From Lytechinus pictus (lineage: Eukaryota), in the NCBI RefSeq assembly GCF_037042905.1, contig NC_087252.1, positions 1 through 64,000 of the forward strand: a stretch of 64,000 bases of DNA. The letters are read 5' to 3'. The stretch's first letter is position 1, and the number at the start of each line of letters is the position of its first letter. The notes beneath the pieces are model-generated. The model had not been told where the DNA came from. It was given only the letters and a program-made list of their open reading frames with translations, and did not search any database. Both the position numbers and the translations under genes were made by a program. Shown here one piece after another: positions 1-61,972 of the stretch.

Positions 1-3000
1 AACCCTAACCCCTAACCCCTAACCCTAACCCTAACCCTAACCCTAACCCTAACCCTAACCCTAACCCAACCCTAACCCTAACCCTAACCCTAACCCTAAC
101 CCTAACCCTAACCCTAACCCTAACCCTAACCCTAACCCTAACCCTAACCCTAACCCTAACCCTAACCCTAACCCTAACCACCCTAACCCTAACCCTAACC
201 CTAACCCTAACCCTAACCCTAACCCTAACCCTAACCCTAACCCTAACCCTAACCCTAACCCTAACCCTAACCCTAACCCTAACCCTAACCCTAACCCTAA
301 CCCTAACCCTAACCCTAACCCTAACCCTAACCCTAACCCTAACCCTAACCCTAACCCTAACCCTAACCCTAACCCTAACCCTAACCCTAACCCTAACCCT
401 AACCCTAACCCTAACCCTAACCCTAACCCTAACCCTAACCCTAACCTAACCCTAACCCTAACCCTAACCCTAACCCTAACCCTAACCCTAACCCTAACCC
501 TAACCCTAACCCTAACCCTAACCCTAACCCTAACCCTAACCCTAACCCTAACCCTAACCCTAACCCCTAACCCTAACCCTAACCCTAACCCTAACCCTAA
601 CCCTAACCCTAACCCTAACCCTAACCCTAACCCTAACCCTAACCCTAACCCTAACCCTAACCCTAACCCTAACCCTAACCCTAACCCTAACCCTAACCCT
701 AACCCTAACCCTAACCCTAACCCTAACCCTAACCCTAACCCTAACCCTAACCCTAACCCTAACCCTAACCCTAACCCTAACCCTAACCCTAACCCTAACC
801 CTAACCCTAACCCTAACCCTAACCCTAACCCTAACCCTAACCCTAACCCTAACCCTAACCCTAACCCTAACCCTAACCCTAACCCTAACCCTAACCCTAA
901 CCCTAACCCTAACCCTAACCCTAACCCTAACCCTAACCCTAACCCTAACCCTAACCCTAACCCTAACCCTAACCCTAACCCTAACCCTAACCCTAACCCT
1001 AACCCTAACCCTAACCCTAACCCTAACCCTAACCCTAACCCTAACCCTAACCCTAACCCTAACCCTAACCCTAACCCTAACCCTAACCCTAACCCTAACC
1101 CTAACCCTAACCCTAACCCTAACCCTAACCCTAACCCTAACCCTAACCCTAACCCTAACCCTAACCCTAACCCTAACCCTAACCCTAACCCTAACCCTAA
1201 CCCTAACCCTAACCCTAACCCTAACCCTAACCCTAACCCTAACCCTAACCCTAACCCTAACCCTAACCCTAACCCTAACCCTAACCCTAACCCTAACCCT
1301 AACCCTAACCCTAACCCTAACCCTAACCCTAACCCTAACCCTAACCCTAACCCTAACCCTAACCCTAACCCTAACCCTAACCCTAACCCTAACCCTAACC
1401 CTAACCCTAACCCTAACCCTAACCCTAACCCTAACCCTAACCCTAACCCTAACCCTAACCCTAACCCTAACCCTAACCCTAACCCTAACCCTAACCCTAA
1501 CCCTAACCCTAACCCTAACCCTAACCCTAACCCTAACCCTAACCCTAACCCTAACCCTAACCCTAACCCTAACCCTAACCCTAACCCTAACCCTAACCCT
1601 AACCCTAACCCTAACCCTAACCCTAACCCTAACCCTAACCCTAACCCTAACCCTAACCCTAACCCTAACCCTAACCCTAACCCTAACCCTAACCCTAACC
1701 CTAACCCTAACCCTAACCCTAACCCTAACCCTAACCCTAACCCTAACCCTAACCCTAACCCTAACCCTAACCCTAACCCTAACCCTAACCCTAACCCTAA
1801 CCCTAACCCTAACCCTAACCCTAACCCTAACCCTAACCCTAACCCTAACCCTAACCCTAACCCTAACCCTAACCCTAACCCTAACCCTAACCCTAACCCT
1901 AACCCTAACCCTAACCCTAACCCTAACCCTAACCCTAACCCTAACCCTAACCCTAACCCTAACCCTAACCCTAACCCTAACCCTAACCCTAACCCTAACC
2001 CTAACCCTAACCCTAACCCTAACCCTAACCCTAACCCTAACCCTAACCCTAACCCTAACCCTAACCCTAACCCTAACCCTAACCCTAACCCTAACCCTAA
2101 CCCTAACCCTAACCCTAACCCTAACCCTAACCCTAACCCTAACCCTAACCCTAACCCTAACCCTAACCCTAACCCTAACCCTAACCCTAACCCTAACCCT
2201 AACCCTAACCCTAACCCTAACCCTAACCCTAACCCTAACCCTAACCCTAACCCTAACCCTAACCCTAACCCTAACCCTAACCCTAACCCTAACCCTAACC
2301 CTAACCCTAACCCTAACCCTAACCCTAACCCTAACCCTAACCCTAACCCTAACCCTAACCCTAACCCTAACCCTAACCCTAACCCTAACCCTAACCCTAA
2401 CCCTAACCCTAACCCTAACCCTAACCCTAACCCTAACCCTAACCCTAACCCTAACCCTAACCCTAACCCTAACCCTAACCCTAACCCTAACCCTAACCCT
2501 AACCCTAACCCTAACCCTAACCCTAACCCTAACCCTAACCCTAACCCTAACCCTAACCCTAACCCTAACCCTAACCCTAACCCTAACCCTAACCCTAACC
2601 CTAACCCTAACCCTAACCCTAACCCTAACCCTAACCCTAACCCTAACCCTAACCCTAACCCTAACCCTAACCCTAACCCTAACCCTAACCCTAACCCTAA
2701 CCCTAACCCTAACCCTAACCCTAACCCTAACCCTAACCCTAACCCTAACCCTAACCCTAACCCTAACCCTAACCCTAACCCTAACCCTAACCCTAACCCT
2801 AACCCTAACCCTAACCCTAACCCTAACCCTAACCCTAACCCTAACCCTAACCCTAACCCTAACCCTAACCCTAACCCTAACCCTAACCCTAACCCTAACC
2901 CTAACCCTAACCCTAACCCTAACCCTAACCCTAACCCTAACCCTAACCCTAACCCTAACCCTAACCCTAACCCTAACCCTAACCCTAACCCTAACCCTAA

Positions 3001-6000
3001 CCCTAACCCTAACCCTAACCCTAACCCTAACCCTAACCCTAACCCTAACCCTAACCCTAACCCTAACCCTAACCCTAACCCTAACCCTAACCCTAACCCT
3101 AACCCTAACCCTAACCCTAACCCTAACCCTAACCCTAACCCTAACCCTAACCCTAACCCTAACCCTAACCCTAACCCTAACCCTAACCCTAACCCTAACC
3201 CTAACCCTAACCCTAACCCTAACCCTAACCCTAACCCTAACCCTAACCCTAACCCTAACCCTAACCCTAACCCTAACCCTAACCCTAACCCTAACCCTAA
3301 CCCTAACCCTAACCCTAACCCTAACCCTAACCCTAACCCTAACCCTAACCCTAACCCTAACCCTAACCCTAACCCTAACCCTAACCCTAACCCTAACCCT
3401 AACCCTAACCCTAACCCTAACCCTAACCCTAACCCTAACCCTAACCCTAACCCTAACCCTAACCCTAACCCTAACCCTAACCCTAACCCTAACCCTAACC
3501 CTAACCCTAACCCTAACCCTAACCCTAACCCTAACCCTAACCCTAACCCTAACCCTAACCCTAACCCTAACCCTAACCCTAACCCTAACCCTAACCCTAA
3601 CCCTAACCCTAACCCTAACCCTAACCCTAACCCTAACCCTAACCCTAACCCTAACCCTAACCCTAACCCTAACCCTAACCCTAACCCTAACCCTAACCCT
3701 AACCCTAACCCTAACCCTAACCCTAACCCTAACCCTAACCCTAACCCTAACCCTAACCCTAACCCTAACCCTAACCCTAACCCTAACCCTAACCCTAACC
3801 CTAACCCTAACCCTAACCCTAACCCTAACCCTAACCCTAACCCTAACCCTAACCCTAACCCTAACCCTAACCCTAACCCTAACCCTAACCCTAACCCTAA
3901 CCCTAACCCTAACCCTAACCCTAACCCTAACCCTAACCCTAACCCTAACCCTAACCCTAACCCTAACCCTAACCCTAACCCTAACCCTAACCCTAACCCT
4001 AACCCTAACCCTAACCCTAACCCTAACCCTAACCCTAACCCTAACCCTAACCCTAACCCTAACCCTAACCCTAACCCTAACCCTAACCCTAACCCTAACC
4101 CTAACCCTAACCCTAACCCTAACCCTAACCCTAACCCTAACCCTAACCCTAACCCTAACCCTAACCCTAACCCTAACCCTAACCCTAACCCTAACCCTAA
4201 CCCTAACCCTAACCCTAACCCTAACCCTAACCCTAACCCTAACCCTAACCCTAACCCTAACCCTAACCCTAACCCTAACCCTAACCCTAACCCTAACCCT
4301 AACCCTAACCCTAACCCTAACCCTAACCCTAACCCTAACCCTAACCCTAACCCTAACCCTAACCCTAACCCTAACCCTAACCCTAACCCTAACCCTAACC
4401 CTAACCCTAACCCTAACCCTAACCCTAACCCTAACCCTAACCCTAACCCTAACCCTAACCCTAACCCTAACCCTAACCCTAACCCTAACCCTAACCCTAA
4501 CCCTAACCCTAACCCTAACCCTAACCCTAACCCTAACCCTAACCCTAACCCTAACCCTAACCCTAACCCTAACCCTAACCCTAACCCTAACCCTAACCCT
4601 AACCCTAACCCTAACCCTAACCCTAACCCTAACCCTAACCCTAACCCTAACCCTAACCCTAACCCTAACCCTAACCCTAACCCTAACCCTAACCCTAACC
4701 CTAACCCTAACCCTAACCCTAACCCTAACCCTAACCCTAACCCTAACCCTAACCCTAACCCTAACCCTAACCCTAACCCTAACCCTAACCCTAACCCTAA
4801 CCCTAACCCTAACCCTAACCCTAACCCTAACCCTAACCCTAACCCTAACCCTAACCCTAACCCTAACCCTAACCCTAACCCTAACCCTAACCCTAACCCT
4901 AACCCTAACCCTAACCCTAACCCTAACCCTAACCCTAACCCTAACCCTAACCCTAACCCTAACCCTAACCCTAACCCTAACCCTAACCCTAACCCTAACC
5001 CTAACCCTAACCCTAACCCTAACCCTAACCCTAACCCTAACCCTAACCCTAACCCTAACCCTAACCCTAACCCTAACCCTAACCCTAACCCTAACCCTAA
5101 CCCTAACCCTAACCCTAACCCTAACCCTAACCCTAACCCTAACCCTAACCCTAACCCTAACCCTAACCCTAACCCTAACCCTAACCCTAACCCTAACCCT
5201 AACCCTAACCCTAACCCTAACCCTAACCCTAACCCTAACCCTAACCCTAACCCTAACCCTAACCCTAACCCTAACCCTAACCCTAACCCTAACCCTAACC
5301 CTAACCCTAACCCTAACCCTAACCCTAACCCTAACCCTAACCCTAACCCTAACCCTAACCCTAACCCTAACCCTAACCCTAACCCTAACCCTAACCCTAA
5401 CCCTAACCCTAACCCTAACCCTAACCCTAACCCTAACCCTAACCCTAACCCTAACCCTAACCCTAACCCTAACCCTAACCCTAACCCTAACCCTAACCCT
5501 AACCCTAACCCTAACCCTAACCCTAACCCTAACCCTAACCCTAACCCTAACCCTAACCCTAACCCTAACCCTAACCCTAACCCTAACCCTAACCCTAACC
5601 CTAACCCTAACCCTAACCCTAACCCTAACCCTAACCCTAACCCTAACCCTAACCCTAACCCTAACCCTAACCCTAACCCTAACCCTAACCCTAACCCTAA
5701 CCCTAACCCTAACCCTAACCCTAACCCTAACCCTAACCCTAACCCTAACCCTAACCCTAACCCTAACCCTAACCCTAACCCTAACCCTAACCCTAACCCT
5801 AACCCTAACCCTAACCCTAACCCTAACCCTAACCCTAACCCTAACCCTAACCCTAACCCTAACCCTAACCCTAACCCTAACCCTAACCCTAACCCTAACC
5901 CTAACCCTAACCCTAACCCTAACCCTAACCCTAACCCTAACCCTAACCCTAACCCTAACCCTAACCCTAACCCTAACCCTAACCCTAACCCTAACCCTAA

Positions 6001-6416
6001 CCCTAACCCTAACCCTAACCCTAACCCTAACCCTAACCCTAACCCTAACCCTAACCCTAACCCTAACCCTAACCCTAACCCTAACCCTAACCCTAACCCT
6101 AACCCTAACCCTAACCCTAACCCTAACCCTAACCCTAACCCTAACCCCCTAACCCTAACCCCCTAACCCTAACCCCCTAACCCTAACCCCCTAACCCTAA
6201 CCCCCTAACCCTAACCCCCTAACCCTAACCCTAACCCTAACCCTAACCCTAACCCTAACCCTAACCCTAACCCTAACCCTAACCCTAACCCTAACCCTAA
6301 CCCTAACCCTAACCCTAACCCTAACCCTAACCCTAACCCTAACCCTAACCCTAACCCTAACCCTAACCCTAACCCTAACCCTAACCCTAACCCTAACCCT
6401 AACCCTAACCCTAACC

Positions 6417-6470
<54 letters not shown>

Positions 6471-6499
6471 CCCTAACCCTAACCCTAACCCTAACCCTA
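1..6499. repeat. Terminal telomeric array (CCCTAA)n / (TTAGGG)n
   Basis: ~6.5 kb of near-perfect CCCTAA starting at base 1, with the C-rich strand on + as expected for a left chromosome end. Confidence 0.99.
6145..6228. repeat. Telomere variant higher-order repeat (CCCCCTAA CCCTAA)x6
   Basis: CCCCCTAA starts at 6145, 6159, 6173, 6187, 6201 and 6215, giving an exact 14-bp period. Confidence 0.9.
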
Positions 6500-6543
6500 T
6501 GGTGGCGGGATCCGCCACTAGCGCAAAGTGCCCCTATACCTGA
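6500..6543. other. Non-telomeric hairpin cassette embedded in the telomere
   Basis: 6501-6541 GGTGGCGGGATCCGCCACTAGCGCAAAGTGCCCCTATACCT is identical to 12295-12335; contains stem GTGGCGG-GAT-CCGCCAC. Confidence 0.92.
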
Positions 6544-6694
6544 CCCTAACCCTAACCCTAACCCTAACCCTAACCCTAACCCTAACCCTAACCCTAACCC
6601 TAACCCTAACCCAACCCTAACCCTAACCCTAACCCTAACCCTACCCCTAACCCTAACCCTTACCCTAACCCTAACCCTAACCCTAACCCTAACC
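6544..6694. repeat. Short internal telomeric tract (~25 units) with variants
   Basis: CCCTAA repeats with CCCAA, CCCTAC and CCCTTA variants in the proximal half; runs directly into CCTAACCAACAAATAGGTTAG of the first array unit. Confidence 0.92.
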
Positions 6695-9600
6695 AACAAA
6701 TAGGTTAGATAATCTTAGCTAAGGAGAGAGTGGCAGAAAAAAAAGAGAAGAGGAGAGTGAGTGAGTGAGAGAGGGAGAAAGATAGAGAGAAACAACAAGT
6801 TAAATGTTAAGGATAAACGAGAGTAGGTATAATTCTTAAAAAGAATATCCATGTTGTTCTGGATGAAAAATAGTGAAAATCGTATTCAACTTCAGGGCTT
6901 CCCCGATTAAACCGTGATTTATTGGGGCTACCCCAATAAAAATGTCAGCCGCCTCTCTCTACACATCCGAGAGCAAATGGTGGTTGTATTACACATTCAA
7001 GAGAGAATTGTGGTAGGGGTGAAGTAGAATCTTCCACTTTCCTGGTGGTAGTATAACTCCGAAAATGAAAGGAATTTATCTTAATATCAGCATATTAATC
7101 TCATTCATATTAAAAGGGTGGCGGGATCCTTACTAGCAAAAATTTATCTATATACTAAAACCTTATCCTAGCAAACAAATAGGTTTATTTTCTTAAATGA
7201 CATTTGATTTTTTTGTTAAGGAAAGAGTGACCGAAAAAGACAGATAGAGAGAAAGAGAGAGAATGAAAAGTTAACGGTAAAGGATACACGGGAGTCGGTA
7301 TACTTTTTTAAAAGAATATATATAGTTCTGGATCCTAACCAACAAATAGGTTAGATAATTTTGGTTGAGAAGAGAGTGACAGAAAAAAGAGAGGAAGAGG
7401 AGAGTGAGTGAGAGAGGGAGACAGGAAGAGAGAAATAACAAATGAAAGGTAAAGGATACAACAGAGTGGGTACAATTTTAAAAAAGAATATCCGTATAGA
7501 TCTGGATGAATAACAGTAAAAATTTTATCCAACTCTAGGGCTTCCCCGATTAAAGCGTGATTTATTGGGGCTACCCCAATAAAAATGTCAGCCGCTTCTC
7601 TGTACACATCCAAGAGTCAAAAGTGTTGGCATTACACTCAAAATGAAAGGAATTTCTCATGATATTAGTATAAAAATCTCATCCATATTGAAAGGGTGGC
7701 GGGATCCTTTACTAGCAAAAAATATCTCTTTACTAAGGCCTAACCCTAGAAAACAAATACGTTTATTTTCTCAAATGACATTGGATAATTTGGTTAAGGA
7801 GAGAGTGACCGAAAAAGAGAGATAGACAGAAGAGAGAGAGAATGAAAAGTTAAAGGTAAAGGATAAACGAGAGTAGGTATAATTCTTGAAAGGAATATCC
7901 ATGTTGTTCTGGATGAATAACAGAGAAATTGGTATCCAACTTCAGGGCTTCCCCGATTAAACCGTGATTTATTGGGGCTACCCCAATAAAAATGACAGCC
8001 GCTTTTCTGTACACATTCAAGAGTCAGAAGTGGTAGTATTACACATTCAAGAGAGAATTGTGGTAGGAGGGGGGGGGGGTAGGAGGGAAGTAGAATCTTC
8101 CACTTCCCTGGTTGTAGTATTTCTCCAAAAATGAAAGGAATTTCTTTTAATATTAGTATAAAAATCTCATTCATAATGAAAGGGTGGTGGGATCCCTCAC
8201 TAGGAACAAAATATCTCTATACTAAAGCCTAACCCTAATAAAGTTTATTTTCTCAAATGACATTGGATAATTTGGTTAAGGAAAGAGTGACCAAAAAAGA
8301 GAAAGAGAGAGAATATTAAAAGTTAAAGGTAAAGGATTTTTTTCGGACTTCAGGGCTTCCCCGATTAAACCTTGATTTATTGGGGTTACCCCAATAAAAA
8401 TGTCAGCCGCTTCTCCGTACACATGCGAGAGTCAGAAGTGGTAGTACTACTCCGAAAATGAAAGAAATTTCGCTTAATGTCAGTATGCAAATTTCATTAT
8501 TATTGAAAGGGTGGCGGGATCTGTCACTGACAAAAAGTTTCTCAATACTTTAACCTGATCCTAACCAACAAAGAGGTTACATAATTTTGATTGAGGAGAG
8601 AGTGACAGAAAAAAGAGAGGGAGAGGAGAGTGAGTGAGAGAGGGAGAAAAGAAGAGAGACATAACAAACAAAAGGTAAAGGATACACGAGAGTGGGTATA
8701 ATTCATGAAAAGAATATCCGTATAGTTCCGGATGAATAACAGTGAAGTTTTATCCAACGTCAGGGCTGCCCCGATTAAACCTTGATTTATTGGGGTTACC
8801 CCAATTAAAACGTCAGACGCCTCTCTGTACACATCCGAGCCCCAATAGTGGTAATATTCCTCCCAAAATAAAAGGAATTTTTCTTAATAACATAATCAAC
8901 ATCTCATTCATATTTAAAGGGTGACAGGATTAATCACTAGCAAAAAAATCTCTGTACTAAAGCCCAATCCTAACAAACATAAGTTCATTTTCTCGAATGA
9001 CATTGGATGATTTGGTTAAGGAGAGAGTGACCGAAAAAGAGAGATAGAAAGAAAGAGAGAGTATGAAAAGTTAAAGGTAAATTATACACTGCAGTCGGTA
9101 TAATTTTTTAAAAGAATATCCATATAGTTCTGGATGGATAACAGTGAAATTTTTATCCGACAGTAAGCATGGTAGGGCTTCCCCGATTAAACTTTGATTT
9201 ATTGGGGGTACCCCAATAAAAATGTCAGCTGCTTTTCCGTACACGTACGATGGTCAGAAGTGGTAGTATTACACCGAAAATGTATGCAAGTTTAATTATT
9301 ATTGAAAGGGTGGCGGGATCCGTCACTGGCAAAAAATTTGTCTGTACTTAAATCTTATTCTAACCAACAAATAGGTTGGATAATTTTGGTTGAGGAGAGA
9401 GTGACAGAAAAAGTGAGGAAGAGGAGAGTGAGTGAGAGAGGAAGACATGAAGAGAGAAATAACAAACTAAAGGTAAAGGATACGCGAGAATTCTTGAAAA
9501 GAATATCCGTATAGTTCTGGATGAATAATAGTGAAATTTTTATCCAACTTTGAAGCTTCCCCGTTTAAACCGCGATATATTCATTGGGGCTACCCCAATA

Positions 9601-10760
9601 AAAATATCAGCCGCCTCTCTGTACACATCCCAGAGCAAATAGTGTTAGCATTACGGTATTACACATCCAAGAGACGATTGTGGTTAGTAGGGAAGTAGAA
9701 TCTTCCACTTCCCTGGTGGTAGTGTTCCTCCCAAAATGAAAGGAATTTCATAATATTAGTATAAAAAACCTCATTGATAATGAAAGGGTGGTGGGATCCC
9801 TCACTAGCAAAAAAAAATCTCTATACTAAAGCCTATACCTAATAAACAAATAAGTTTATTTCCTCAAATGACATTGAATAATTTGGTTAAAGAGAGAGTG
9901 ACCGAAAAGAGATATAGAGAGATAGAAAGAGAGGGGGAATTAAAAGTTAAAGGTAAAGTATACACGGGATTTGGTACATTTTTAAAAAGAATATCCATAC
10001 AGTTCTTGATGGATAACAGTGAAATTTTTATCCGAATTTAGGGCGTCCCTGAATAAACCTTGATTTATTGGGGCTACCCCAATAAAAATGTCAGCCGCTT
10101 TTCTGTACACATCCGAGAGCAAATGGTGGTTGTATTACACATTCAAGAGAGAATTGTTTTAGCAGGAAAGTGGAATCCTTGGAAGTATTACTCCGAAAAT
10201 GAAGGAAATTTCTCGAAATATTAGAATACAAATCTTTTTCATATTCAAAGGGTGGCGGGAACCGTCAGTAGCAAAATATATTTCTTTATGACAGACCAAC
10301 AATAACCATCACATACCATTATTTCTTCATTAAAAAAAAATATATTTCTTCAAATATTTAGCAGAATTTCGATTAAGAAGAGAGGACAAGAAAATAGAGA
10401 TAAAGAGAGAAGGGGAGGGAAAGGGGAAGGGGAAGGGAGAATACAAAAGGACAAAAATAAATAAACTCAATCAGTGTATGCATTCGAGAGTAGGGTATTG
10501 TAGTTTATACCCAACAGTTTTAGACAAGAATATCCAAATAATTCCCAATGAATATCCGTGAAATTTCTATCCAGCTTCAGGGATTTCCCGATTAAACCTT
10601 GATTTATTGGGGCTACCCCAATAAAAACGTCAGTCGCCTTTCTGTACACAACCGAGAGACAACAGTGATAGTATTCTCCGAATGTGAAAGCAATTTCTCT
10701 TAATATCAGTATAAAAATATATTCATATTCAAAGGGTGGCGGGATCCGTCACTAGCAAAA
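6695..10760. repeat. Subtelomeric tandem array of about nine diverged ~410-bp units (A/B subtypes)
   Basis: TTTATTGGGGnTACCCCAATAAA recurs at ~6918, 7561, 7968, 8376, 8786, 9198, 9583, 10064 and 10603; GGGTGGCGGGATCC..CACTAG-like motif at ~7116, 7694, 8182, 8509, 8919, 9308, 9786, 10250 and 10734. Confidence 0.92.
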
Positions 10761-12332
10761 AGTTTGAAAAGCTTTAAAATGTCATAACTTTGTTATTCCA
10801 TGTCCGTTTCTGAAGAAATTTCCAATGTTTTGTATGACTCAGGGTACCGTCTCCCTGAATATTCCTTTTACATTTGCAGATTGAAGGGTTTGCCTGTTTG
10901 AACTTTCGGAACAACTCAGGATTACATGTCACTGATCAATACTGAAAGAAATAAAGCTCATAAGTATATGAATTGAAATTATAGTATGGAAACTTTAATG
11001 ATTTTACAGCATATATAAGGTAACAATCGAGGGTGTGTACACAACGACTACATGATGGGAAGCTATATACAAGGTTTGACTAAAAAAAAAAGGGTTATAA
11101 GTATGGTTAACAACTCATTTTTATTGTATTTATACAAGTCTAGATCAACCATGAAGATACATTACAGAAGTAAATCACCTGATGGTCTTGGTCCTTACAG
11201 GATTCTCGGATACAGCAAACTCCGATTTCTCAAATGAACAAATACAAAATCACAGCCATAATGACAAACAGCATCTTAAGGCAGTCCAATGTTGTCTCCA
11301 TGCCTCGAACGCAATGGAAGAAATGAGCAATTCATAAGTTGAGCTAACGCTGGAGTGGGCAAGAACGTGGACTTATACGGTAGCGAAAAAGAAAGTATTA
11401 TGACCTGATTATAGTATGATCATTGACAGGAGCTCCTAATGGCTCCACGATTTGATCCATGTGACAAGGAGCATCAACTGCTTGGTAACAAAATAATTAC
11501 AACAGTTTTAGGTTTTAAAGTGTTTATTTGACCATTCATAGCTATTTTGTAATTTCATAGCAGGGAGGGGCACTTTTGGCCACCCCTCCCCTAAGATCTC
11601 GGTCGAGGATCGCGCAATCGCGCCGAAAATTCGCACGCACGTTATTCGTGTCGTAATCTCTCAATAATGCCAAAATATTTGAAATTAATTTTTGATTGAC
11701 TATGCTAATTAATTCATATGATCATACTTTGGCTGCAAATCAATAATATTGCTCTTGAAACTTTAAATATTGGTCTGGACACTCATTTTAGGATTCTTAC
11801 TATATGTATACTAAAAACAGGAAATAGCTAGTGTTCTATATACTTAAATGTTATTTTTTTAAATACTTTTTTGTTTATTAGGTTTGTATTTTATTTTAAG
11901 GAAATCTTTTGGAACACTATTGGGGGACACAAATTATTTACAAGTGAAAGAAAAAGACTTAAAAAATATTTTTTTAATGAAAATATGTATTACTGTACAA
12001 GGCCTATAGTAGCGCCAATGCCTCTATACCCAAACAATAACCATAACCCTGACTGTATGGACTTTCCCCATTAGTATAACACGCATGTGTACAAAGTCTA
12101 TGGGAGTTTCGGACTTATGATATATTTTCCCTTTTTTATGTACAAACCCTATGTAATTTTTTTTCCCCCAACTATAGTTTTTTTACATGTTTTGACCATT
12201 TTATAGCTATAAATTTTTTTTTTTTTTAATACTTTGACATTTTTTCGAATTTCCCCATAGGTATAACACGTGTGTACAAAGTCTATGGAAAATGGGTGGC
12301 GGGATCCGCCACTAGCGCAAAGTGCCCCTATA

Positions 12333-12561
12333 CCTAACCCTAACCCTAACCCTAACCCTAACCCTAACCCTAACCCTAACCCTAACCCTAACCCTAACCC
12401 TAACCCTAACCCTAACCCTAACCCTAACCCTAACCCTAACCCTAACCCTAACCCTAACCCTAACCCTAACCCTAACCCTAACCCTAACCCTAACCCTAAC
12501 CCTAACCCTAACCCTAACCCTAACCCTAACCCTAACCCTAACCCTAACCCTAACCCTAACC

Positions 12562-12633
<72 letters not shown>

Positions 12634-12669
12634 CCCTAACCCCTAACCCCTAACCCTAACCCAACCCTA

Positions 12670-12708
<39 letters not shown>

Positions 12709-12717
12709 ACCCTAACC
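12333..12717. repeat. Interstitial telomeric tract, same orientation as the terminal telomere
   Basis: ~385 bp of CCCTAA, pure distally, with CCCTAAA, CCCCTAA and CCCAA variants proximally. Confidence 0.97.
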
Positions 12718-13256
12718 TTCATAATGAAATGTGAAAATGTATTCGTGAACAACATTATTTGCATACAACTTTACTTTAGATTTTAATTGCCCAAAGTAAT
12801 ATCAATTTCAAAATCTGAATTAAAGGTTTTGGCAAAATAAAAAACATCATCATGGTCCTGCATGGGTAGCGGGACCTTGGGGACGCAGCTGCGTGTATTA
12901 TTCTCCATAGGCAGCTGCACCCCCAGTTATTTTGGAAGATGTGTACAAATGTAAAACGTAAACAAAACGACTTTCATTTTGTAGGGAAACCCCACTTTTT
13001 TTTCTTTTTTTTTGCTCTTCAAATTTCTCTGAACCAATTTCATCTCCATTTTGTAGTGAAAAACTTTTTTTTCTTCCTTTTAAACTTTCTCGGGATCAAT
13101 TTGATCTGCTTTTTTAAAAGTGAACACCATGTTCTTTTTTTTTTTTTTTTTTGCTTTTCAAATTTACTTCAGTACCCCCACGCAAAAAATCGTTCACAGG
13201 CCCCATAATTTCAAAGTATAAAAATAAGCCATTTTCGCGGAATCACGTGTTGTCAC

Positions 13257-14722
13257 CAGTGGCGTAGCTAGGATTTTTTTCCCGGGGGGGCACTGGGGGG
13301 TCCTTGCTTTTTTCAAGGGGGGCACCGGCCATTTTTCCGGTGTGTGTGTATGTGTCACAAGGGCGGATCCGACATTCGCCAATAGGGGACGGGTCCCGAA
13401 TTTATCTTCACCTATATCAGTCACTTCTTAGTTTTATTATATAAAACAACATAAACATGAAATAATCTCATAAGCCTTATAAAAAGTGCGAGCGCGAAGC
13501 GCGAGCGATTTTTTTTTTTTTTACTTTCATGTATTTTTCCTGAAAATTTAATTTTCTGGGCAATGTTATGTGTGATCCTGAACAAGATTCGTATGTAACT
13601 AGATGGTTACTGCGAACGCCAAGCGCGAACAGAAATTGTTATCAACTGTTCTAGCATTATCGAAAAGGGACCTGTTAAGGACTGCTTACAGTTACCCACG
13701 AAGACGGTATATATTTCAATAATGCGAGCGCGAAGCGCGAGCAAATTTTTTAACATTCCGACCTAAAAAATGGTAATTCTAAGCACTTTTTGTATTAATA
13801 AATGGGATAGGTATGGCACTAAACAATTGATGCGAGCGCGAAGCGCGAGGAAGAAAATTGAGATTTTAGACCTAAAAGCGGGACACTCAATTCATATTTT
13901 GTAAATCATAAATAGGATATAGTCAATTGGGTATCATTAATAATGCGATCGTGAAGCGTGAGCAGACAATTATTGATATTCTGATGTGAAACTGGATAAT
14001 TTAAGTCCATTTTGAATAAAGGTCATTTTGCCTCCGACGAAGATTCTGCTAGGATCGAAAGCTTAGGCCCCTTTTTGACTTTCTAATTTTGAATAAAGAA
14101 CATGCAGGCTATCGCGCATGTTTTAGATTTAGACCTAGAATCTGGGCATTCTGAATACATTTGTTTAATGGAACATTATGGAATACACTTAGACAATATG
14201 AACTTGGCAAATCAAACAATGTGACCATGCAGCGTGAGCTTAAAATGCTGATATGTAGACCGTAAAACGGACATTTTACAGAGCACTTAAATTGTAAATG
14301 AAAAAAATAATGAAAGCTCGATGTCCGAGCTAAAATATGTTTTGCATATTGACTTCAAAACTTGCTCCATATCAGCCTATTGAGCAAGATATGAATCTCA
14401 TCAAACAGGCAATTCTGGCGCGAAGCGCCAGCAAAAATTTTATATAGTAACATGAAAAGATTTGTTTTTTAATTGCAAGTCTTCCCCTCCCATTATTTCA
14501 TTTACTCGTCTTCCTCCTCTTATTTTCCTCTTCTTTTTTTCTTCTGTCTTTCTTCTTCTTTTCCTTTTTTTCTTTTCTTCTTTTCCTTTTTTCTTTTCTT
14601 CTTTCTCCCTTTTTTCTTTTTTTTTTGCTCTGCCAATTTTTTCTGGGGGGGCACCTGGGGGGGCACACCAAATCTCAGGGGGGGCACGTGCCCCCCCAGG
14701 CCCCCCCGTAGCTACGCCACTG
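13257..14722. mobile_element. Non-autonomous hAT-like DNA transposon
   Basis: TIR CAGTGGCGTAGCTA...TAGCTACGCCACTG; perfect 8-bp TSD GTTGTCAC (13249-13256 and 14723-14730); no transposase ORF. Confidence 0.88.
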
Positions 14723-32996: not shown

Positions 32997-34850
32997 TAGA
33001 TAGATAGATAGATAAATTCTATTTTCACACGGTAAAAAACCCAAACAGATTAGATACATAGTCTGATTTGCATTGGGGCCGTGCCATGAATAAAATGTAC
33101 AAAGTAAAACTAAAAGGCACCCAATCTAGTATACATGAATAATACATAAAACATAATAATCGTAATTATTACCAGGTGATAATACAAAGACGGTAAATTT
33201 ATACAAATAATTACGAATTGTAATCAAATGACAAATTGGTAATATACAGAATACCTTCAATATGAATGCATAATACAGAAAATATAACATTATTATAGGG
33301 TGAAATATTACTCGGATACATAATTATAAATGGATTAATTTGAATTATTGATAAAAAAAACTATGTCTAACAACACTGCACACTCACCCTTACACACAAA
33401 CAGATACACACCCTTTCATACACCTGTCATCATTAGGTCTCATCCCTTTGATTTAACGCATACAGGTATAACAGGGAAAAAAAGACATACCCTCCCCCAC
33501 CAACCTATCCCTTTGTGATTCATTTCCTTGAATTAGCTTATGCCCTTTTGAAACTGGTAGTGGTATTAGATTGTTGCATTTGGATTGGTAGTGAGTTCCA
33601 GCATTGAGCCCTCCTGAACTTAAAAGTTTTCTTACCAGATTCGGTTTTTGCTTGGGGGATATTTAAAGTTAGTGGACCTGACCGTGTATTATATGTATGC
33701 CTATAAAATGAAAATCTTTCAATTAAATATGTCGGTGCCTGTCCTGTCATTATTTTAAACATAATTATAGCAATGTTGTCTCTTCTGTTTTCTTGTAGCG
33801 TTACCCATTTTAATTTATTTAAATTCTCTTTGGAAGATGAATACCATGGAGATCAATTTATTATTTGGGCAGCCCTATTTTGTAGCTTTTGAAGAATTTT
33901 CTGATTAATCAACCCGCAGGTACCCCATACAGCATCGCAATAGTTAAAATGTGACATTATCAGGGAATTATAAACAATGATCAGATCCTTTTCGTCGACG
34001 AAGTTCTTTATAGACTTTAACATGAATAAACCACCATTTACTTTCTTCTGAACATAATCAATATGGTTTTGCCATGTTAAATTAGAATCAAGGATAACAC
34101 CTAAATATTTGCATTCATCTACCTTACACAATGGAGCATTATCAATATGTATCTGAAACATAGCATTTTTAATTTTACAGAGCCTTTGTTTGGTACCTAG
34201 TACAATGTACTCGGTTTTATCGATGTTTAAATGTAGTTTATTTTTAATCAGCCATTTTCTTATGTTTTCTAGATCTTCATTAATCTTAAAACATATTTCA
34301 GTGGGGCTTTTGCCTGAGCAATAAATCATCGTATCATCTGCATACAAGCTAACTTTACAATGTTTCAAAATGGACGGTAGATCATTAACAAATATGATAA
34401 AAAGTAGGGGTCCCAATATTGACCCCTGGGGAATACCACCCAGGATAAGGCGAGTTTGAGATATATGGCCACTGACTCTTGTAACCTGCCCTCTTCCTTT
34501 TAAATAATTCGTGAACCAGTTTATTGACACTCCATCCAGACCATACTGACATAGTTTATCGATTAACAATTCGTGACTTACAGTATCAAACGCTTTGCGC
34601 AGATCAAGCATTACAGCACATACAACATTCCCGTTATCAAATTCATTAAACCAATCATCGGTGATTGAAAGCAGTGTTGTCATGGTTGAATGAAGGGGCC
34701 TAAAGCCTGATTGGGAAGCATTCAAGAGATGATGAGAATTAAAGTAATTGTACAATTGGTTAAAAACTATTCTTTTTAAGATTTTTGATAAGATCGGTAA
34801 AATAGAAATGGGTCTAAAATTATTAAGTTCATTAGAGCCTCCTTTGTACC
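32997..34850 (-). mobile_element. 5'-truncated L2/CR1-group LINE (reverse transcriptase to 3' tail)
   Basis: Motifs NFRPISILP, LDLRKAFDTV, GIPQGSILGPLLF and YADDT; in-frame continuation after one TGA at 33853-33855 (LKWVTLQENRR...WNSLP); (TCTA)n tail. Confidence 0.92.
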
Positions 34851-35574
34851 AATTGGTCCAGCAGTGAACACATCCATATCCAGAATACAGTGTAAAGATG
34901 ATGATTACAAAATACAGTACAATATATTTCAATGCATAAAGAAAACATACACTACACAAGTCAATACTTCTACTTCTAGTATTTCTACGACAATACTCAG
35001 CAGGATCCATAAGTCAGGATGTAGTGCTAAGGAAATATCTTGGGTGCTCATCTGCAGTGCATACTTGTTGGTGCCTTTAAAACATTGTGCTGTTTGTGCA
35101 AGTAAAAATCTAGTAAATCAATACTACAATACCAACCAAAATGTGAACAATACTTAAATCAGACAAGAAGAGAAACAGTATAATGTAGATGTGGGGATCA
35201 TTTAAAAAGTTAAAAACTTTTAACATAATCCCAATTTTGTCAATAAAAGTTTGAGTTTTGCAGAGAAAGACTAGAAAAAAAAATGTAATTGAGGTACATG
35301 TATTAACTTAATCTAGGATTCTAGGAAATTAGAGTTTTTTTGTAGAAGAAATGTTTTAAGTTTATATTTGAATACATTAAGGGATAGTGAACTTTTTTAA
35401 TCTTCACTCCTTCAGGGAGGCTGTTCCAGAATACAGGACCATTATGAATTATTGACTTTGGGATAAGGATAATTTCCCACATGAAACACAGTAATCAGAT
35501 TTTCTTCTAGTATCATAATTGTGAATATTAGAATTTTACAAAATAAAGAATAAAAATTTATTGGAAGTAATTTC

Positions 35575-36030: not shown

Positions 36031-37757
36031 TATATATTATAGGATTTTCTTGGAAAAAAGCTCAGGACATGCAGGAGGTCATTTTCAGATTGAAAAAAAA
36101 TGGTACCCCCTGTCTGCGCACCCATTCACTTTGCACACGATTCAGGGATTTTGATGAGAAATGCTGCATTTTGAGGCCATCACATGAAATGCCCAAAATT
36201 CATTATTTTCCCACCATTCTGAGTCAGATTTTTTAAATGAATATCTGTCTATGTATTGCATGTGTAAAGTCTGTGTTCTTTGCGTATCTTCTTTTACTAG
36301 AATCGCACAGGTACGCGTGTGCGCAGACAACCAGGACTGTGCAGACTTTGGGGAACTTGCCAATTTGCCATACATGCTGAATGAAACTGAACTTCTGTTC
36401 TGAAGTGAAAATGAAATTCAAGCGTGTCTGAGTGTGGAAATCGGACAACAATAATCAGATTGAGCTGAGCTGTGGCTGTGCTGTGTCGAGTGTGTTGGTG
36501 GCTATGCACAGTCAAGTGTGCAGTTGTTTTCATTCAGTTTAAACTTTGATTAGGCCTAGTCTAGTATATAAGGAATTCATTATTGCCTGAAAAATACCTG
36601 AGGCCTGGCTGTGTCTTGGATCAAAATCCATGCTTGGTTTATTAGAATTTAGCTTATTTTATTTTTGCTAATTTTTCTGCAATTATGCAATTTTTTTTAA
36701 AAGAAAAGTAAAAAAGTTAAGAATCTTAACTTAATGATAAATTAGATACCAGTTGTAAAAATCATATAATGTGTGCTTACTCTCCACGGAGCCAGGGATT
36801 GTGTCCCATTCATGTGCGTGTACCGCAAAAAAAAACTTTCGCCCCCAAGATTTCTACTTCTAAAAGATCCATCCCTAAATCATGTAAATGGGATACAACT
36901 TCATTTCCGACATTTCTACGATATTGATTTCATTTTTAAACAAGAATTCATTAAAAAAAACAAGAAAAATATTATGAAAAGACGGGGAAAACTTGCGCGA
37001 TGTTTACGTCGCCATCTTGTTTCTTTTTGTTCTCCCCCAATGTTACCCCAGGGGAAATTTCAACCAAGTTTATGCTTTTGAAATTTGAAATGTCATCATA
37101 ACTTAAAATAAATGGATCTAGTCATGACACTTTTAGGGTAATGAAGTGACCCTGATCAATTTAGGTAGCTGTAGGGGCACGTCCAGCCCATGCCCTCCCT
37201 TTTGAGAGGCGCAAAAAATATTTTCTATTATGCAAAGTCATATGCAAGGGTTTCTTTTTTTTTTTGGCTCATCAAATTTTTCCTGTGCAAAAATGGCATG
37301 CCCCTCCCCATTTTGATAATCCTGGATCTGTCCCTGCATAAGTTTCAGGTCACGATCAAGATAGGACATTTCAGGTCATCAAACTTTATAGTATGTTATT
37401 ATCAAATGAATTTTCAGGAGTGAAAAATTGTTCTTTGCTTAGTAGTTTTCTAAGTCGGCAACTCGGCTCTACCACGTCCTGTATTGAATCACATAATACA
37501 GTTGAGACTGTGAGAGATGTTGAAATTTAGAGTCACTTTTCCAAAAGATACATTACAACCCAAAGAGTGTACAATCACATAGGGCACAAAATACTCGACA
37601 CCACTGAGAGGCACATTGAGGTACATGAACGCAGCATCCAAGGCCATCATATGGGATTCATTTAATCCTTAGGTGTCAGTTCAGTGTGATTAAGAGATAA
37701 CCATTTTCTTTTTGTTTCTTTCATTGATTCAGGATGAAGTAAAGACCTAAGTCAATC

Positions 37758-38658
37758 ATGGCTGGTACTAGATATTTGGCTTCACCTGTCCTTCTGAGAC
37801 AGATTCTGTTCTGTGGAGAGCTGCAGAGACATCTCCTCTTTCCATTGAAGTCAAGACACCAACAAACTATTTCATCAAGTCACATCCATCATTCTACAAT
37901 GGGAAGACTATGCTCTGGTCGCACTTCTACAGAGATGATAGGAAACCTGTTCCTGTCAAGGAAGAGGATGGTGTGTTCCCCTGATGTAGGGGCGAGTTAT
38001 CCATTTCCATTAAATCTTCAAACTTCTGTATTTTGCAACGTTTGGAATACAAAGTGTGAACTCCATGATGCAGCCCCTTTTTCTTCAGATATCATTAGCC
38101 CCAGTCCAAGTAGCACTGATGTCAAGTCCAAAGTAATTACTTTCATAGAAAGTGAAGATGATTTGGATACCTTCATGAGCCAAGTCACATCAGAATTGAA
38201 TTTATCAGAACCTTCAACATCTGTGCAGATTCTCAGACCACTTGTTCAAAAGCTTGTTAGTATGGATTGTGATTGCAGAGGCATATCTGCAATGCTAGTA
38301 GCTAATCCCAGGATACTCTCTGTGCAGATGGGTAGACTTCTTGGCAACATTGATTATCTTCATATGCTTGGATTGAACTATAGGCAGTTGTTGAAGACCC
38401 TTGATGGAAACGCAAGATTGTGGAAGGCATCGCTTCAGAATCTTCAGAGTAGAGTCAAGCAGCTCAGGAAGTTTGGGTTTGTGGAAGGGCAACTGCAAAG
38501 GTTGATTGCCGATTGGCCACATGTACTGACCATGGGTAGTGTCCAGTTGAATACTGTGGTCAAGTTACTGATGGAGAAGTGCAGATTCCCCAGGGCGGAA
38601 GTCTTGACCATATTATCAGACAGTCCAGCAATCTTGAAAGAAGACCTAGAGAGTATTG
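37758..38658 (+). CDS. MTERF4: Mitochondrial transcription termination factor family member 4, first coding exon
   Basis: Acceptor at 37732; presequence-like N-terminus; mTERF-type repeats (NPRILS, WPHVLT, SPAILK); donor G|GTAAG, phase 1. Confidence 0.85.
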
Positions 38659-38678
38659 GTAAGATTTGTAGAGTCAAT

Positions 38679-38972
38679 GGCCCGTATTCTGAAGTCGGGT
38701 TTAACTTAGACCATGGTCTAACTCTGTGCTAAAATTATGGGAAGCCAAAAGTTTCAAAATTTTGTTTACAGTGAATGCTTCTCATGTTTATTGTGCTCTT
38801 TACTATTTTATTAATGGTTAAGACAACTGTCAATATCCTACCCAGGCATTTAATGTTTTGGGAGTCAAATGAGCTGATACATTGAACCTCTACTGTTATA
38901 GATTTATGTAACAACTGGCTTTCCATAGTTAAACCAGAGTTTAAATTAAACCCGACTGCAGAATACAGGCCC
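38679..38972. mobile_element. MITE (Harbinger-like termini) in the MTERF4 intron
   Basis: GGCCCGTATTCTGAAGTCGGGTTTAA ... TTAAACCCGACTGCAGAATACAGGCC; inverted related copy near 47290-47578. Confidence 0.65.
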
Positions 38973-39425
38973 ATGTATTTCTATTACCCTCCACCAGTGC
39001 CGGTTCCTGCTGATTACTACATCAGGCCACATTGTTGGTATATGATGGTAAAACCATCCAAAGTATTGCATCCAATACCCCCCCCCCTTCCCCCTCCCCC
39101 CTTGTCTTTCCTTTCATTATGTAGCTTCTTCCTGATTATCAATCAACACCAAACTTCAGTCCTTTGCCCTTTATTCCAGTTTTCTCTCATCAAAAATATT
39201 ATAGCATAGATATGTGTATGGTAGAAAAGGTAATAATCCTGTTTTTGAAAGGAAGATTGATCAATTATACAGTAACTGAAACTGACCTATGGTATGTCAT
39301 TGGAAGTAACATAAAAGCTTTGGACAGTCTGGAGTCGGCTTTGGCATTGTAACTATCATTAGAGAGCAAAACATTCTTTTAATAAACCTGCACAATTTTT
39401 GTTTACACAATTTTTTTTCTTACAG

Positions 39426-39898
39426 AACTTCGTTTCCAGTATTGCTACTTCAGGATGGGTATCCAGAACAACTCCGAGATGACTCAAGCCAAGATCTTCA
39501 AGTACTCCCTTGATCACCTACGCTGCAGACACCTTATCCTTGAGAGACTAGGTCTGTATGCTCCACCCAACAATAGAGGGCACTTTGCCACAAAGAACCC
39601 AAGCTTGTCAAGGATCATTGATAGCTCTGATGGACGGTTTACAGAGAAGGTTGCCAAGATCACTCTGGAAGAATATGAAGCCTTCAGCAAGATTCTCCTG
39701 GAGGAAATCAAGGTTGAACAGTTCAACATAGACCATCTTGGTGGAGGAAATCTTGATGAGTTCACAGATGAAGACAGCCATTATGATGATAGTGATGATA
39801 GTATTGACTCTGATAGTGAGTTTTGGGATACAGATGATACTGTCTCTCAAACACAACCATTTGACTTTGACAAAGTTGATTACAGAAAGAAAAGGTGA
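39426..39898 (+). CDS. MTERF4: MTERF4, last coding exon
   Basis: TACAG|(E)LRFQYCYFRMGI...RHLILERLGLY..P...NPSL..I....F.....LEEYEAFSKIL plus acidic tail; matches the MTERF4 C-terminal signature. Confidence 0.9.
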
Positions 39899-48216: not shown

Positions 48217-48384
48217 GGTTCCATGACATTTGCTCTGCTGCAAAGTCCACACATTAATGGAATGACCCACTTCAACCCTAAATTTAACACTAAACCTAAT
48301 ATAAAACCCTATTACAACCCTAACCCTATATCTTATACAAACTAAAGCCCAGAGCAATTGTCGCTAGAGCAAATGTCATGGTAC
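48217..48384. mobile_element. Mutator-like MITE with internal telomere-like repeats, nested in another MITE
   Basis: TIR CCATGACATTTGCTCT / AGAGCAAATGTCATGG; 9-bp TSD TGTTTAATA; internal AACCCTAA-like units. Confidence 0.78.
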
Positions 48385-60364: not shown

Positions 60365-61972
60365 TCTTTCTCTCCTGTGTTCTTCCTCCACTAAGGTCGG
60401 AGATCAACGGCACCGTTGGAAGTGCCGCAATTCATTGAAGGCTTTAAGTTGCAATCATGAAGAAGTATTGAGTAAGTTTTGACGAGTTGTGTGGAGGTTG
60501 CGCAAGAAGTATAGAATAAGCGTATGTAATTGGGCTTTTGTGTTGTTACTGATACGCCCAGGAGGTAAAAACGGACCGACTCTACAAAAAGAGCAGGGGT
60601 AGATTCAAAGCATGGTCCAAACTGCTTGGTGTTGGGATTAGCCTTAACGCGCTGGATAAGGTCCTGTCGGACAGATGCTAGGGCTGGACAGGTAGCAACC
60701 AGATGTTCCACATCCTCGCAGGCTGACATGCAGACGACAGCAATCATCAGGTGCTTTGCCAATCTTGGCGAGCCTGGCTTGGGTCAGATAGACTTGGCAA
60801 GAGATCTGAGCACGGATGGTGATGGCTGACCGCAGACTTGGATTGGCAATGTGCCCAGGGTACAGATCCTTCGCCTTTGGTTTAGGGGTTCTAGTCCAAA
60901 AGGACAAGAATGTCTTGTTGGTAAGGGCGTTATGCTGTCTGGCCTCGGACACCTGAATCACTGCCGACTGAACCACTCACTTCCATAGATGGTAGTTAGG
61001 GGGATTCCTTACAAGTTCATCAAGTGGGGGAAGGCTGAGTTGTTGGGAGTGCAGCACGCCATTCTTGTACGGATTTGGTGTTGGCACAGATACCATGAAG
61101 AAGAATCCTTCCTTCTATCCTGTCCATGTCGGTGCTCAAGATCTGTCCCAGGAGTTGGAGCTTTTCCTGGGTGACCAACAGGCTAATTGGGGTTATGTCA
61201 GTGAGAAGATATACTGCTTCGTCAGCTGATGTTGTTGGTAGACCCAGAATCCGCTTAAATAGGTGAATCTGTGCTTTATCTAGGCGATTCAACATTGCCC
61301 TTGAAAAGGGAATGCTAGAGCAGCCGAAGATCATCCTGGGAACACAAAAAAGTTTTCCACAGTTTTGCAGCGACATGGGGAACTACCCTTGCTCCTAGTG
61401 GTGAGGTTCCCACAAGGGCATAAAATTATCTGTATCCCTTTGTGATCGCATCGGCAGCGTAGTCATACTGAAGATGCCAAGGTGCTTGTGTGAGGAGACC
61501 TGTGCAATCGGTTCACCATTGATCTGCCAAGAGTTGCCACTGTTCTGAAGATCTTGATTAAGCACAATGATTGCACTCTTGGAGGGGTTGATCTTGTATT
61601 TCCACTCCTGGGTGTGATTAACTGTGACATTCAACATCTGTTGCAGTTCCATGGGCTCATTGCTAAGAAGTGCAATGTCATCCGCGAAGGCTATGACCCC
61701 AACGTATAGGTTGCCAACTGAGCAGCCAAGATGACACTCCCTCAGACACTTAATAAGGTCGTTGATGTAGAGAGTGAACAGCATGGGGGAAAGCACTCCC
61801 CCCTGCCTTACTCCTTGGAGAACAGGAAAGGAGGGACCAACTTCATGCTTCCAGAATACCTTGCTTGAGCAACTGTTGTAAAATTCAGTAATGGTATCCA
61901 GCAGCACTGTAGGTGGATGAGTCGCTGCTATCTTCGAAAGGAGACCATCTTGCCAGACCCTGTCGAATGCTT
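60365..61972 (-). mobile_element. 5'-truncated, frameshifted non-LTR retrotransposon (RT plus C-terminal Cys/His knuckle; RTE-X-like, clade uncertain)
   Basis: KAFDRVWQDGL, GVRQGGVLSPMLF, FADDIALL, HKHLG and C..C....EDVEHLVATC spread over several broken frames. Confidence 0.85.

What the first reader, a model, noticed from the sequence alone, without database searches (positions are those of the whole stretch)
6500..6543. 41-bp hairpin cassette inside the telomere, identical to the sequence abutting the internal telomeric tract 5.8 kb away
Seen: GGTGGCGGGATCCGCCACTAGCGCAAAGTGCCCCTATACCT sits between two CCCTAA tracts and is identical to 12295-12335, where it is also fused to CCCTAA. On the G-rich strand both read (TTAGGG)n then cassette. 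The distal copy stops just past the hairpin and returns to TTAGGG. Inference: a telomeric 3' end primed synthesis on a template carrying CCCTAA next to the cassette, copied ~40 nt, and was then re-capped by telomerase. The template could be DNA (invasion of the internal tract or of another chromosome end, as for TALT-type templates in C. elegans and mouse). It could also be RNA (telomere-primed reverse transcription, as for endonuclease-deficient Athena Penelope-like elements).
Basis: partly seen in the sequence, partly recalled or inferred. Interest (0 to 1): 0.85.

Follow-up and report, generated by a model that had tools for sequence, protein, structure and literature searches.

The report
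Telomere repair scar with telomerase fingerprint
A 41-base piece of DNA sits inside a sea urchin telomere and is identical to the sequence beside an inner run of telomere repeats 5.8 kb away; the chromosome end likely copied it from there and was then likely re-capped by telomerase, whose RNA probably left one tell-tale letter at the join, a well-marked example of a known kind of end repair.

Summary
Observation confirmed: 6501-6541 equals 12295-12335 (41/41), same strand, both fused to CCCTAA. (1) The cassette is the conserved core of a local family: nine degenerate copies in a ~450-bp array (6695-10765) and a half copy at 12010, all in one orientation; none in the proximal 51 kb. (2) The telomeric copy sits in register with that array. 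(3) Its distal join, 6491-6503, equals the 9-nt template plus the next four bases (UGGU) of Lytechinus variegatus telomerase RNA; 3 of 88 listed animal template rows read so, and the host is a Lytechinus. One base there is in neither donor nor telomere repeat. Best reading (0.58): telomere-primed DNA copying, then telomerase re-capping primed on the template flank. No reverse transcriptase, hammerhead, TIR partner or TSD supports Athena or Merlin. Limits: one junction, noticed post hoc, two other parses give the same letters, no raw reads, no genome held. Precedents: TALT, MoTeR relics, flank-coded bases at mouse TERC-ITS. The scan noted a similar flank match before in another genome (e1-7941320). 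New member of a known kind; interest 0.42.

The parts
1..6500 (+). Terminal telomere, (CCCTAA)n; 923 consecutive perfect units in 601-6140, variant units at 6145-6216 and 6439-6452
6491..6503 (+). Distal join; equals telomerase RNA template (9 nt) plus 4 nt of its 3' flank as published for L. variegatus, S. purpuratus and E. chloroticus
   Evidence: single occurrence in the window, 0 of 100 shuffles
6501..6541 (+). Telomeric copy of the 41-bp cassette
6502..6518 (.). 7-bp-stem hairpin; the copy ends one base outside its foot
6542..6694 (+). Tract 1, about 25 telomeric units with 4 variant units; its proximal end falls on the telomere-like motif of an array unit
6695..10765 (+). Tandem array of nine 327-578-bp units (74-89% alike), each ending in a degenerate cassette and a degenerate telomere-like motif; each also holds a 10-bp-stem palindrome
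12010..12051 (+). Degenerate half cassette (19 of 22 alike, no hairpin) followed by a degenerate telomere-like run
   Evidence: score 27; 0 of 60 shuffled queries reach it over 57 kb
12060..12288 (+). Two copies (12060-12103, 12247-12288; 89% alike) of a 44-bp module upstream of the internal cassette
12295..12335 (+). Internal copy of the cassette, the candidate donor
12333..12717 (+). Tract 2, 63 telomeric units: 41 perfect units next to the cassette, 8 irregularities in the proximal 134 bp; likely a former chromosome end

Best explanation
The cassette is a 41-bp stretch inside the telomere, identical to the DNA beside the inner telomeric tract, and it is likely the scar of a short telomere end that primed DNA copying on that tract (or an identical one elsewhere) and was then likely re-capped by telomerase pairing with the bases just beyond its template. 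Steps: (1, inferred) the end had shortened to tract 1, about 25 repeats; (2, inferred) its G-rich 3' end invaded tract 2 or a twin at another end and copied into the neighbouring sequence; (3, inferred) synthesis stopped, or a longer copy was trimmed back, one base past a GC-rich hairpin; (4, shown as sequence, inferred as mechanism) the new end ...ACC paired with GGU 3' of the telomerase RNA template, the enzyme copied one flank base (the A found in neither donor nor repeat) and then the template, and built the present 6.5-kb telomere. The array and tract 2 look like older rounds of the same kind of end repair (inferred).
For: Identity, orientation and fusion to CCCTAA of both copies. Join 6491-6503 equals template plus UGGU; this reading occurs in 3 of 88 listed template rows of an animal telomerase RNA alignment, all three in sea urchins including L. 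variegatus, and in 3 of 9 echinoid rows (PMC8480181 suppl. Fig. S1); the window's mTERF is 98% identical to a L. pictus and 91% to a L. variegatus protein. The copy ends at the only full ACC site among 49 stop points in the first 60 nt of the donor (80 of 5630 over 5.6 kb). The variant unit CCCTAT occurs 0 times among 1160 perfect units of the three tracts, so the extra base is not an ordinary repeat variant. Tract 1 has 4 variant units in about 25 against 0 in the 41 donor-side units (Fisher p 0.018), as expected if tract 1 was the older primer and not a fresh copy. Precedent: flank-coded bases at 8 of 14 mouse TERC-ITS (PMC2246262 passages); D-loop invasion of interstitial tracts and 1-7-nt seeds in Pyricularia (PMC7367193, PMC8381367 passages); TALT copying in a telomerase-positive wild C. 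elegans strain (PMC6581047 passages).
Against: One junction, recognised after the fact. The same letters arise if the copy ran three bases further and later lost one base of a homopolymer, or if it skipped 8 nt at a 2-nt microhomology (skips of 1 and 8 give 2 and 4 further donor matches); a better flank-pairing site (6 bp) lies 12 nt further on and was not used. The host species' own telomerase RNA was not seen; UGGU is taken from its congener. The base at 6542 differs from the internal copy, so the true donor may be another locus. The cassette's position in register with the array also fits a break-and-heal history. Short copying cannot be told from long copying plus trimming.
Confidence: 0.58

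Rival explanations
1. Break and heal inside a repeat family: the cassette at 6501 is simply the next unit of the subtelomeric array (perhaps part of a non-autonomous DNA transposon that carries telomere-like repeats, as Merlin-like elements in this genome are reported to do); the chromosome broke at its edge and telomerase healed it, with tract 1 expanded from the unit's own motif and the identity to 12295 owed to a young subfamily or gene conversion.
For: Tract 1 ends exactly on the telomere-like motif of an array unit and the cassette occupies the position of that unit's degenerate cassette. A profile of the array copies finds both perfect copies from its first position (E 9e-5 and 2e-4). 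A GG-ended MITE with an 8-bp target duplication and a telomere-like motif lies at 48218-48380. Earlier notes describe Merlin-like elements with telomere tracts and arrays in this genome (unchecked). The telomerase signature fits this history equally well.
Against: Array copies differ from the cassette at 11 to 16 of 41 positions in the 6 ungapped matches listed, while 6501 and 12295 differ at none. No inverted partner of the cassette and no 8-9-bp target duplication in the window. Sequence upstream of the array cassettes has no homologue upstream of 12295.
Confidence: 0.16
2. RNA template: the cassette is the 3'-terminal relic of a telomere-primed or telomere-targeted retroelement (Athena-type Penelope-like, or MoTeR/TRAS-type), reverse transcribed onto the end and capped by telomerase; the array and the 12010 half copy would be older truncated insertions.
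For: Geometry matches: element end fused to reverse-complement telomeric repeats, truncation on the far side, one orientation in 12 of 12 pieces (PMC8557442 and PMC7367193 passages). Three different left neighbours meet the cassette within about 5 nt of the hairpin foot, as a fixed template end would give. Departures in the stem are mostly G-T pairs on the + strand.
Against: No Pfam family in 19 of 47 ORFs of 55 aa or more scanned from 6.7-13.2 kb; no hammerhead core on either strand of 6400-14000 and no Rfam family near its gathering score. No pair of the hairpin shows a change on both sides, and pairing does not exceed shuffles (162 of 500 as high). A DNA donor is present in cis.
Confidence: 0.14
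3. Assembly or consensus artefact: reads from the internal tract or from another chromosome end were stitched into the telomere through the shared repeats.
For: Both copies border simple repeats at a contig end; no raw read could be inspected.
Against: The telomere-to-cassette join exists nowhere else in the window, so it must come from a molecule; it carries the telomerase-flank reading; the copies differ on both flanks and tract 1 has its own variant units; a regular six-fold 14-bp variant lies just distal, as in inherited proximal telomere DNA.
Confidence: 0.08

Closest known systems
TALT1/TALT2 of C. elegans, including the wild strain CB4856 chromosome VR (PMC8034613, PMC6581047; passages)
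   Same: Non-telomeric DNA next to internal telomeric repeats appears at the end in the same orientation between telomeric tracts; occurs with an intact telomerase gene; final cap ascribed to telomerase.
   Different: TALT units are 135 and 1446 bp, flanked by repeats on both sides at the origin, and tandemly amplified; here one 41-bp perfect copy, bordered by pure repeats on one side only at the donor, under 6 kb of ordinary telomere.
Pyricularia (Magnaporthe) MoTeR relics, D-loop extension and telomere healing (PMC7367193, PMC8381367; passages)
   Same: Short element ends fused to CCCTAA, interstitial tracts bounding subtelomeric tandem repeats, ends invading their own interstitial tracts, healing from 1-7-nt seeds.
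   Different: MoTeR1 encodes a reverse transcriptase with a putative endonuclease; nothing coding was found here. Seeds were scored against the repeat only, not against the telomerase RNA flank, in the passages seen.
TERC-ITS of vertebrates (PMC2246262, PMC8537989; passages)
   Same: Bases 3' of the template are copied with the first hexamer (8 of 14 mouse loci; one Xenopus locus).
   Different: Those are short interstitial insertions at repaired breaks carrying pieces of telomerase RNA itself; here the signature is at a working terminal telomere, and the cassette does not resemble the published sea urchin telomerase RNA 5' region.
Endonuclease-deficient Penelope-like elements, Athena and Coprina (as summarised in PMC8557442, passages; original papers not read)
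   Same: Attach to the G-rich overhang through reverse-complement telomeric repeats; same polarity.
   Different: Defined by their reverse transcriptase and adjacent hammerhead motifs; neither was found.
Merlin DNA transposons (PMC8101967; passages and supplement search)
   Same: Cassette begins with GG; Merlins often hold tandem repeats, and supplement sequences include telomere-like runs.
   Different: No inverted partner and no 8-9-bp target duplication in the window.

Membership tests
TALT-type template | Internal origin adjoining telomeric repeats, copy at the end in the same orientation | tested here: met
TALT-type template | Origin flanked by telomeric repeats on both sides | tested here: inconclusive
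   Pure tract on one side; a degenerate telomere-like run about 245 bp away on the other, which the copy did not reach
TALT-type template | Tandem amplification at the end, at several ends | not testable with these tools
   One perfect copy at this end; no genome held
TALT-type template | Serves as the telomere in place of telomerase products | tested here: not met
   923 perfect units lie distal and the join carries a telomerase-type signature
Telomerase healing with flank-coded bases (TERC-ITS signature) | Bases between donor and first repeat are complementary to those 3' of the template | tested here: met
   13 of 13 against L. variegatus template plus flank; one base is non-donor; two other parses exist
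Telomerase healing with flank-coded bases (TERC-ITS signature) | Match is to the host's own telomerase RNA | not testable with these tools
   Only the congener's sequence was seen; host placed in Lytechinus
TERC-ITS type B (read-through past the template boundary) | Insert equals the telomerase RNA sequence 5' of the template | tested here: not met
   By eye against the L. variegatus, S. purpuratus and E. chloroticus rows: the 20 bases next to the repeats differ
Athena/Coprina EN-minus PLE | PLE reverse transcriptase ORF | tested here: not met
   0 Pfam hits in 19 of 47 local ORFs; a remote autonomous partner is untested
Athena/Coprina EN-minus PLE | Hammerhead motif beside the reverse-complement repeats | tested here: not met
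   (core motif recalled)
Athena/Coprina EN-minus PLE | Reverse-complement telomeric repeats at the 3' side, telomere cap at the truncated side | tested here: met
Merlin | Terminal GG | tested here: met
   weak, two letters
Merlin | Terminal inverted repeats | tested here: not met
   No inverted match better than 5 of 16 or 8 of 24 mismatches in 64 kb
Merlin | 8-9-bp target site duplication | tested here: not met
   the one hit is inside an unrelated MITE
Helitron 3' end (features recalled) | Hairpin followed after a short spacer by a CTAG end, homology stopping there | tested here: not met
   CTAG overlaps the stem and homology continues beyond it into the repeats

The most novel reading that the evidence does not exclude
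The cassette is the fixed end of a small non-coding template (RNA or folded single strand) that has been appended to this chromosome end again and again: three unrelated neighbours meet it at the foot of the same hairpin and all twelve pieces face one way. It would be a non-autonomous, telomere-primed element in a deuterostome, capped each time by telomerase priming on its template flank, and that flank reading would serve as a genome-wide barcode of past healing events in these sea urchins.
Probability: 0.13. Interest if true: 0.75.

Novelty: new member of a known kind. Interest (0 to 1): 0.42.

Why it matters
It is a compact record of recombination-type end extension and telomerase capping acting in turn at a natural, working telomere of an animal with little described subtelomere biology (one search listed no paper on sea urchin subtelomere structure by title or abstract start). 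Because Lytechinus, Strongylocentrotus and Evechinus have a short 9-nt template followed by UGGU, healing events can leave a readable mark that recombination or slippage would not. That makes a usually unprovable claim, that telomerase made a given join, testable both genome-wide and with the existing in vitro sea urchin enzyme (PMC4712671). As it stands it is one junction of a known class.

Tried and rejected
No genome is held, so other chromosome ends could not be searched. Sequencing runs: 2 listed, share 0.06 each, both contig sets guessed to be RNA, no RNA holder on record. Collection scans: exact 20-mer, 0 in metagenome contigs; gapped hairpin-plus-repeat pattern, 0 in viral contigs, 4 in metagenome contigs, all GC-rich (65-70%) and sharing only telomeric repeats in the BLAST output seen, which was cut. 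Look-ups of earlier notes by sequence gave nothing for the cassette and array, but also nothing for a common satellite used as control, so they are uninformative. Rfam: 7 weak miRNA matches, all far below gathering score. Idea that the cassette is the 5' end of telomerase RNA read through the boundary: rejected against published rows; a 12-letter gapped likeness to the L. variegatus P1.1 helix was judged chance and not tested. An AT-rich 10-11-nt likeness between some array units and the S. purpuratus flank was dropped because the host is a Lytechinus, whose flank differs there. Helitron end and Merlin terminus: see membership tests. Deep homology between the array body and the DNA upstream of 12295: not found. 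A 16-nt hit near 39600 lies in the mTERF reading frame and an 11-nt inverted hit at 11567 in another repeat; both treated as chance. The contrast within tract 2 (p 0.0002) uses a boundary chosen after looking and 7 of the 8 irregularities, so the p value is not relied on. Paper searches for flank priming at terminal telomeres gave only the TERC-ITS papers as precedent; passages of 10.1101/2022.10.31.514589 did not address it, and its supplements were not available.

Full report
Observation. The window starts in a telomere (about 1114 units to 6694) and has a second tract of 63 units at 12333-12717. The 41 bases 6501-6541 are identical to 12295-12335, on the same strand, each followed by CCCTAA. 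Nothing longer than 11 nt of it recurs in 12718-64000. The hairpin has a 7-bp stem and 3-nt loop (6502-6518) and folds at -9.2 and -10.8 kcal/mol on the two strands. Just outside the 41 bp the copies differ on both sides: 6542 is G against A, and the far side reads ATGGTGG against ATGGGTGG. The host is a sea urchin of the genus Lytechinus: the mTERF exon at 37758-38690 is 98% identical to a L. pictus and 91% to a L. variegatus protein.

Surroundings. Between the two perfect copies lies an array of nine units of 327-578 bp, 74-89% alike (6695-10765). Each ends in a degenerate cassette and a short telomere-like motif. A profile built from these nine ends finds exactly the two perfect copies, from its first position, while profiles of the DNA upstream find nothing significant near 12295; ungapped identity to 12295 falls from 0.98 to 0.62 to 0.36 over the first ten bases to the left. 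So three different neighbours (telomere, array body, the 44-bp duplicated module) meet the cassette within about five bases of the hairpin foot. A half copy without the hairpin lies at 12010 (19 of 22; 0 of 60 shuffled queries score as well). All twelve pieces face the same way; none lies in the proximal 51 kb. Tract 1 joins the array exactly on a unit's telomere-like motif, so the telomeric cassette stands where a unit's degenerate cassette would stand. Tract 2 has 41 perfect units beside the cassette and 8 irregularities in its proximal 134 bp, the polarity expected of a former end (my inference). Tract 1 has 4 variant units in about 25, unlike the donor-side units (p 0.018).

The distal join. 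On the G-rich strand the internal copy continues ...GCCACC CATTTT and the telomeric copy ...GCCACC A TAGGGTTAG. In the animal telomerase RNA alignment of PMC8480181 (supplementary Fig. S1, rows read through; main text not read) the L. variegatus template CUAACCCUA is followed by UGGU. Window 6491-6503 equals these 13 letters, once in the window and in 0 of 100 shuffles (that control is lenient because the first nine letters are telomeric). The reading template plus UGGU occurs in 3 of 88 listed rows, and in 3 of 9 echinoid rows: Lytechinus, Strongylocentrotus, Evechinus. The simplest account is that the new 3' end ACC paired with GGU, telomerase copied the adjacent U as A and then ran through the template. 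CCCTAT is not a variant seen in the 1160 perfect units of the tracts. Two other histories give the same letters: copying three bases further with later loss of one homopolymer base, or an 8-nt skip at a 2-nt microhomology. Each needs a second event; I put the three at roughly 0.65, 0.2 and 0.15 (judgement). All three end with telomerase-type capping. Flank-coded bases are on record: in 8 of 14 mouse TERC-ITS the repeats are preceded by bases complementary to those 3' of the template (PMC2246262, passages), and one Xenopus locus carries the sequence downstream of the template (PMC8537989, passages). Mouse and sea urchin both have short alignment regions (PMC4993307, passages, for rodents; the 9-nt urchin template).

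What supplied the 41 bases. A DNA template is favoured because an identical one lies in cis behind a long tract, and because ends invading their own interstitial tracts, followed by healing from short seeds, are described in Pyricularia (PMC7367193, PMC8381367, passages) and TALT copying in a telomerase-positive wild nematode (PMC6581047, PMC8034613, passages). Whether synthesis stopped at 41 nt, helped by the nascent hairpin folding back, or ran further and was trimmed cannot be decided; the mismatch at 6542 allows a twin donor at another end. For an RNA template the geometry fits Athena-type elements (PMC8557442, passages), but no Pfam family was found in 19 of 47 local ORFs (the two RVT_1 frames at 33.9 and 61.4 kb are 21 kb and more away), no hammerhead core, no Rfam family and no compensatory pair in the hairpin across 12 rows. 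Read-through of telomerase RNA itself is excluded by the published 5' regions (boundary helix described in PMC4712671, first seventh of the text and passages). A Merlin origin, suggested by earlier notes on this genome, fails on TIR partner and target duplication (defining features from PMC8101967, passages), though the window does hold an unrelated GG-ended MITE with an 8-bp duplication and a telomere-like motif, and a break-and-heal history inside a repeat family stays open because of the register with the array.

Reality of the locus. No genome and no DNA run were available, so raw support is untested. An artefact is unlikely because the join exists nowhere else, carries a clade-specific reading, and sits among inherited-looking variant units.

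Verdict. Real in the assembly, best read as telomere-primed DNA copying plus telomerase re-capping (0.58), against break-and-heal in a repeat family (0.16), a retroelement relic (0.14) and artefact (0.08). Each ingredient is known; searches listed no report of this signature at a terminal telomere or in an echinoderm, but the library lacks most subscription papers. New member of a known kind, interest 0.42.

Noticed in passing
window 48218-48380: About 165-bp MITE with GG-started imperfect inverted ends, an 8-bp target duplication and an internal telomere-like motif; Merlin-like; unrelated to the cassette.
   Followed up: partly
window 6145-6216: Six copies of a 14-bp variant unit (one repeat with two extra C plus one normal repeat) in the proximal telomere, suggesting slippage or recombination within the tract.
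   Followed up: no
window 6918-10625: A 10-bp-stem, 3-nt-loop palindrome is the best conserved feature of all nine array units, more so than the cassette hairpin.
   Followed up: no
window 10755-10833: The array ends by joining a fragment of a high-copy repeat at a stretch that both share, with no target duplication; looks like a microhomology join (loose ends, by eye).
   Followed up: partly
window 11284-11822: Low-depth contigs of runs X1 and X2 match this subtelomeric stretch without differences; transcription or DNA carry-over not told apart.
   Followed up: no
window 37743-39898: mTERF4-like gene, two large exons, about 31 kb from the telomere.
   Followed up: partly
window 33853-35013 and 61395-62006: Two LINE-type reverse transcriptase frames (RVT_1), not linked to the cassette.
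   Followed up: no
L001-L004: GC-rich metagenome contigs with many internal telomeric runs, several ending in CCAG before GC-rich sequence, as if the runs fill introns; unrelated to this finding.
   Followed up: no
PMC7367193, section 25: Five of six MoTeR truncations without an in-frame seed end in C; this might reflect pairing with that fungus's template flank. Untested lead.
   Followed up: no
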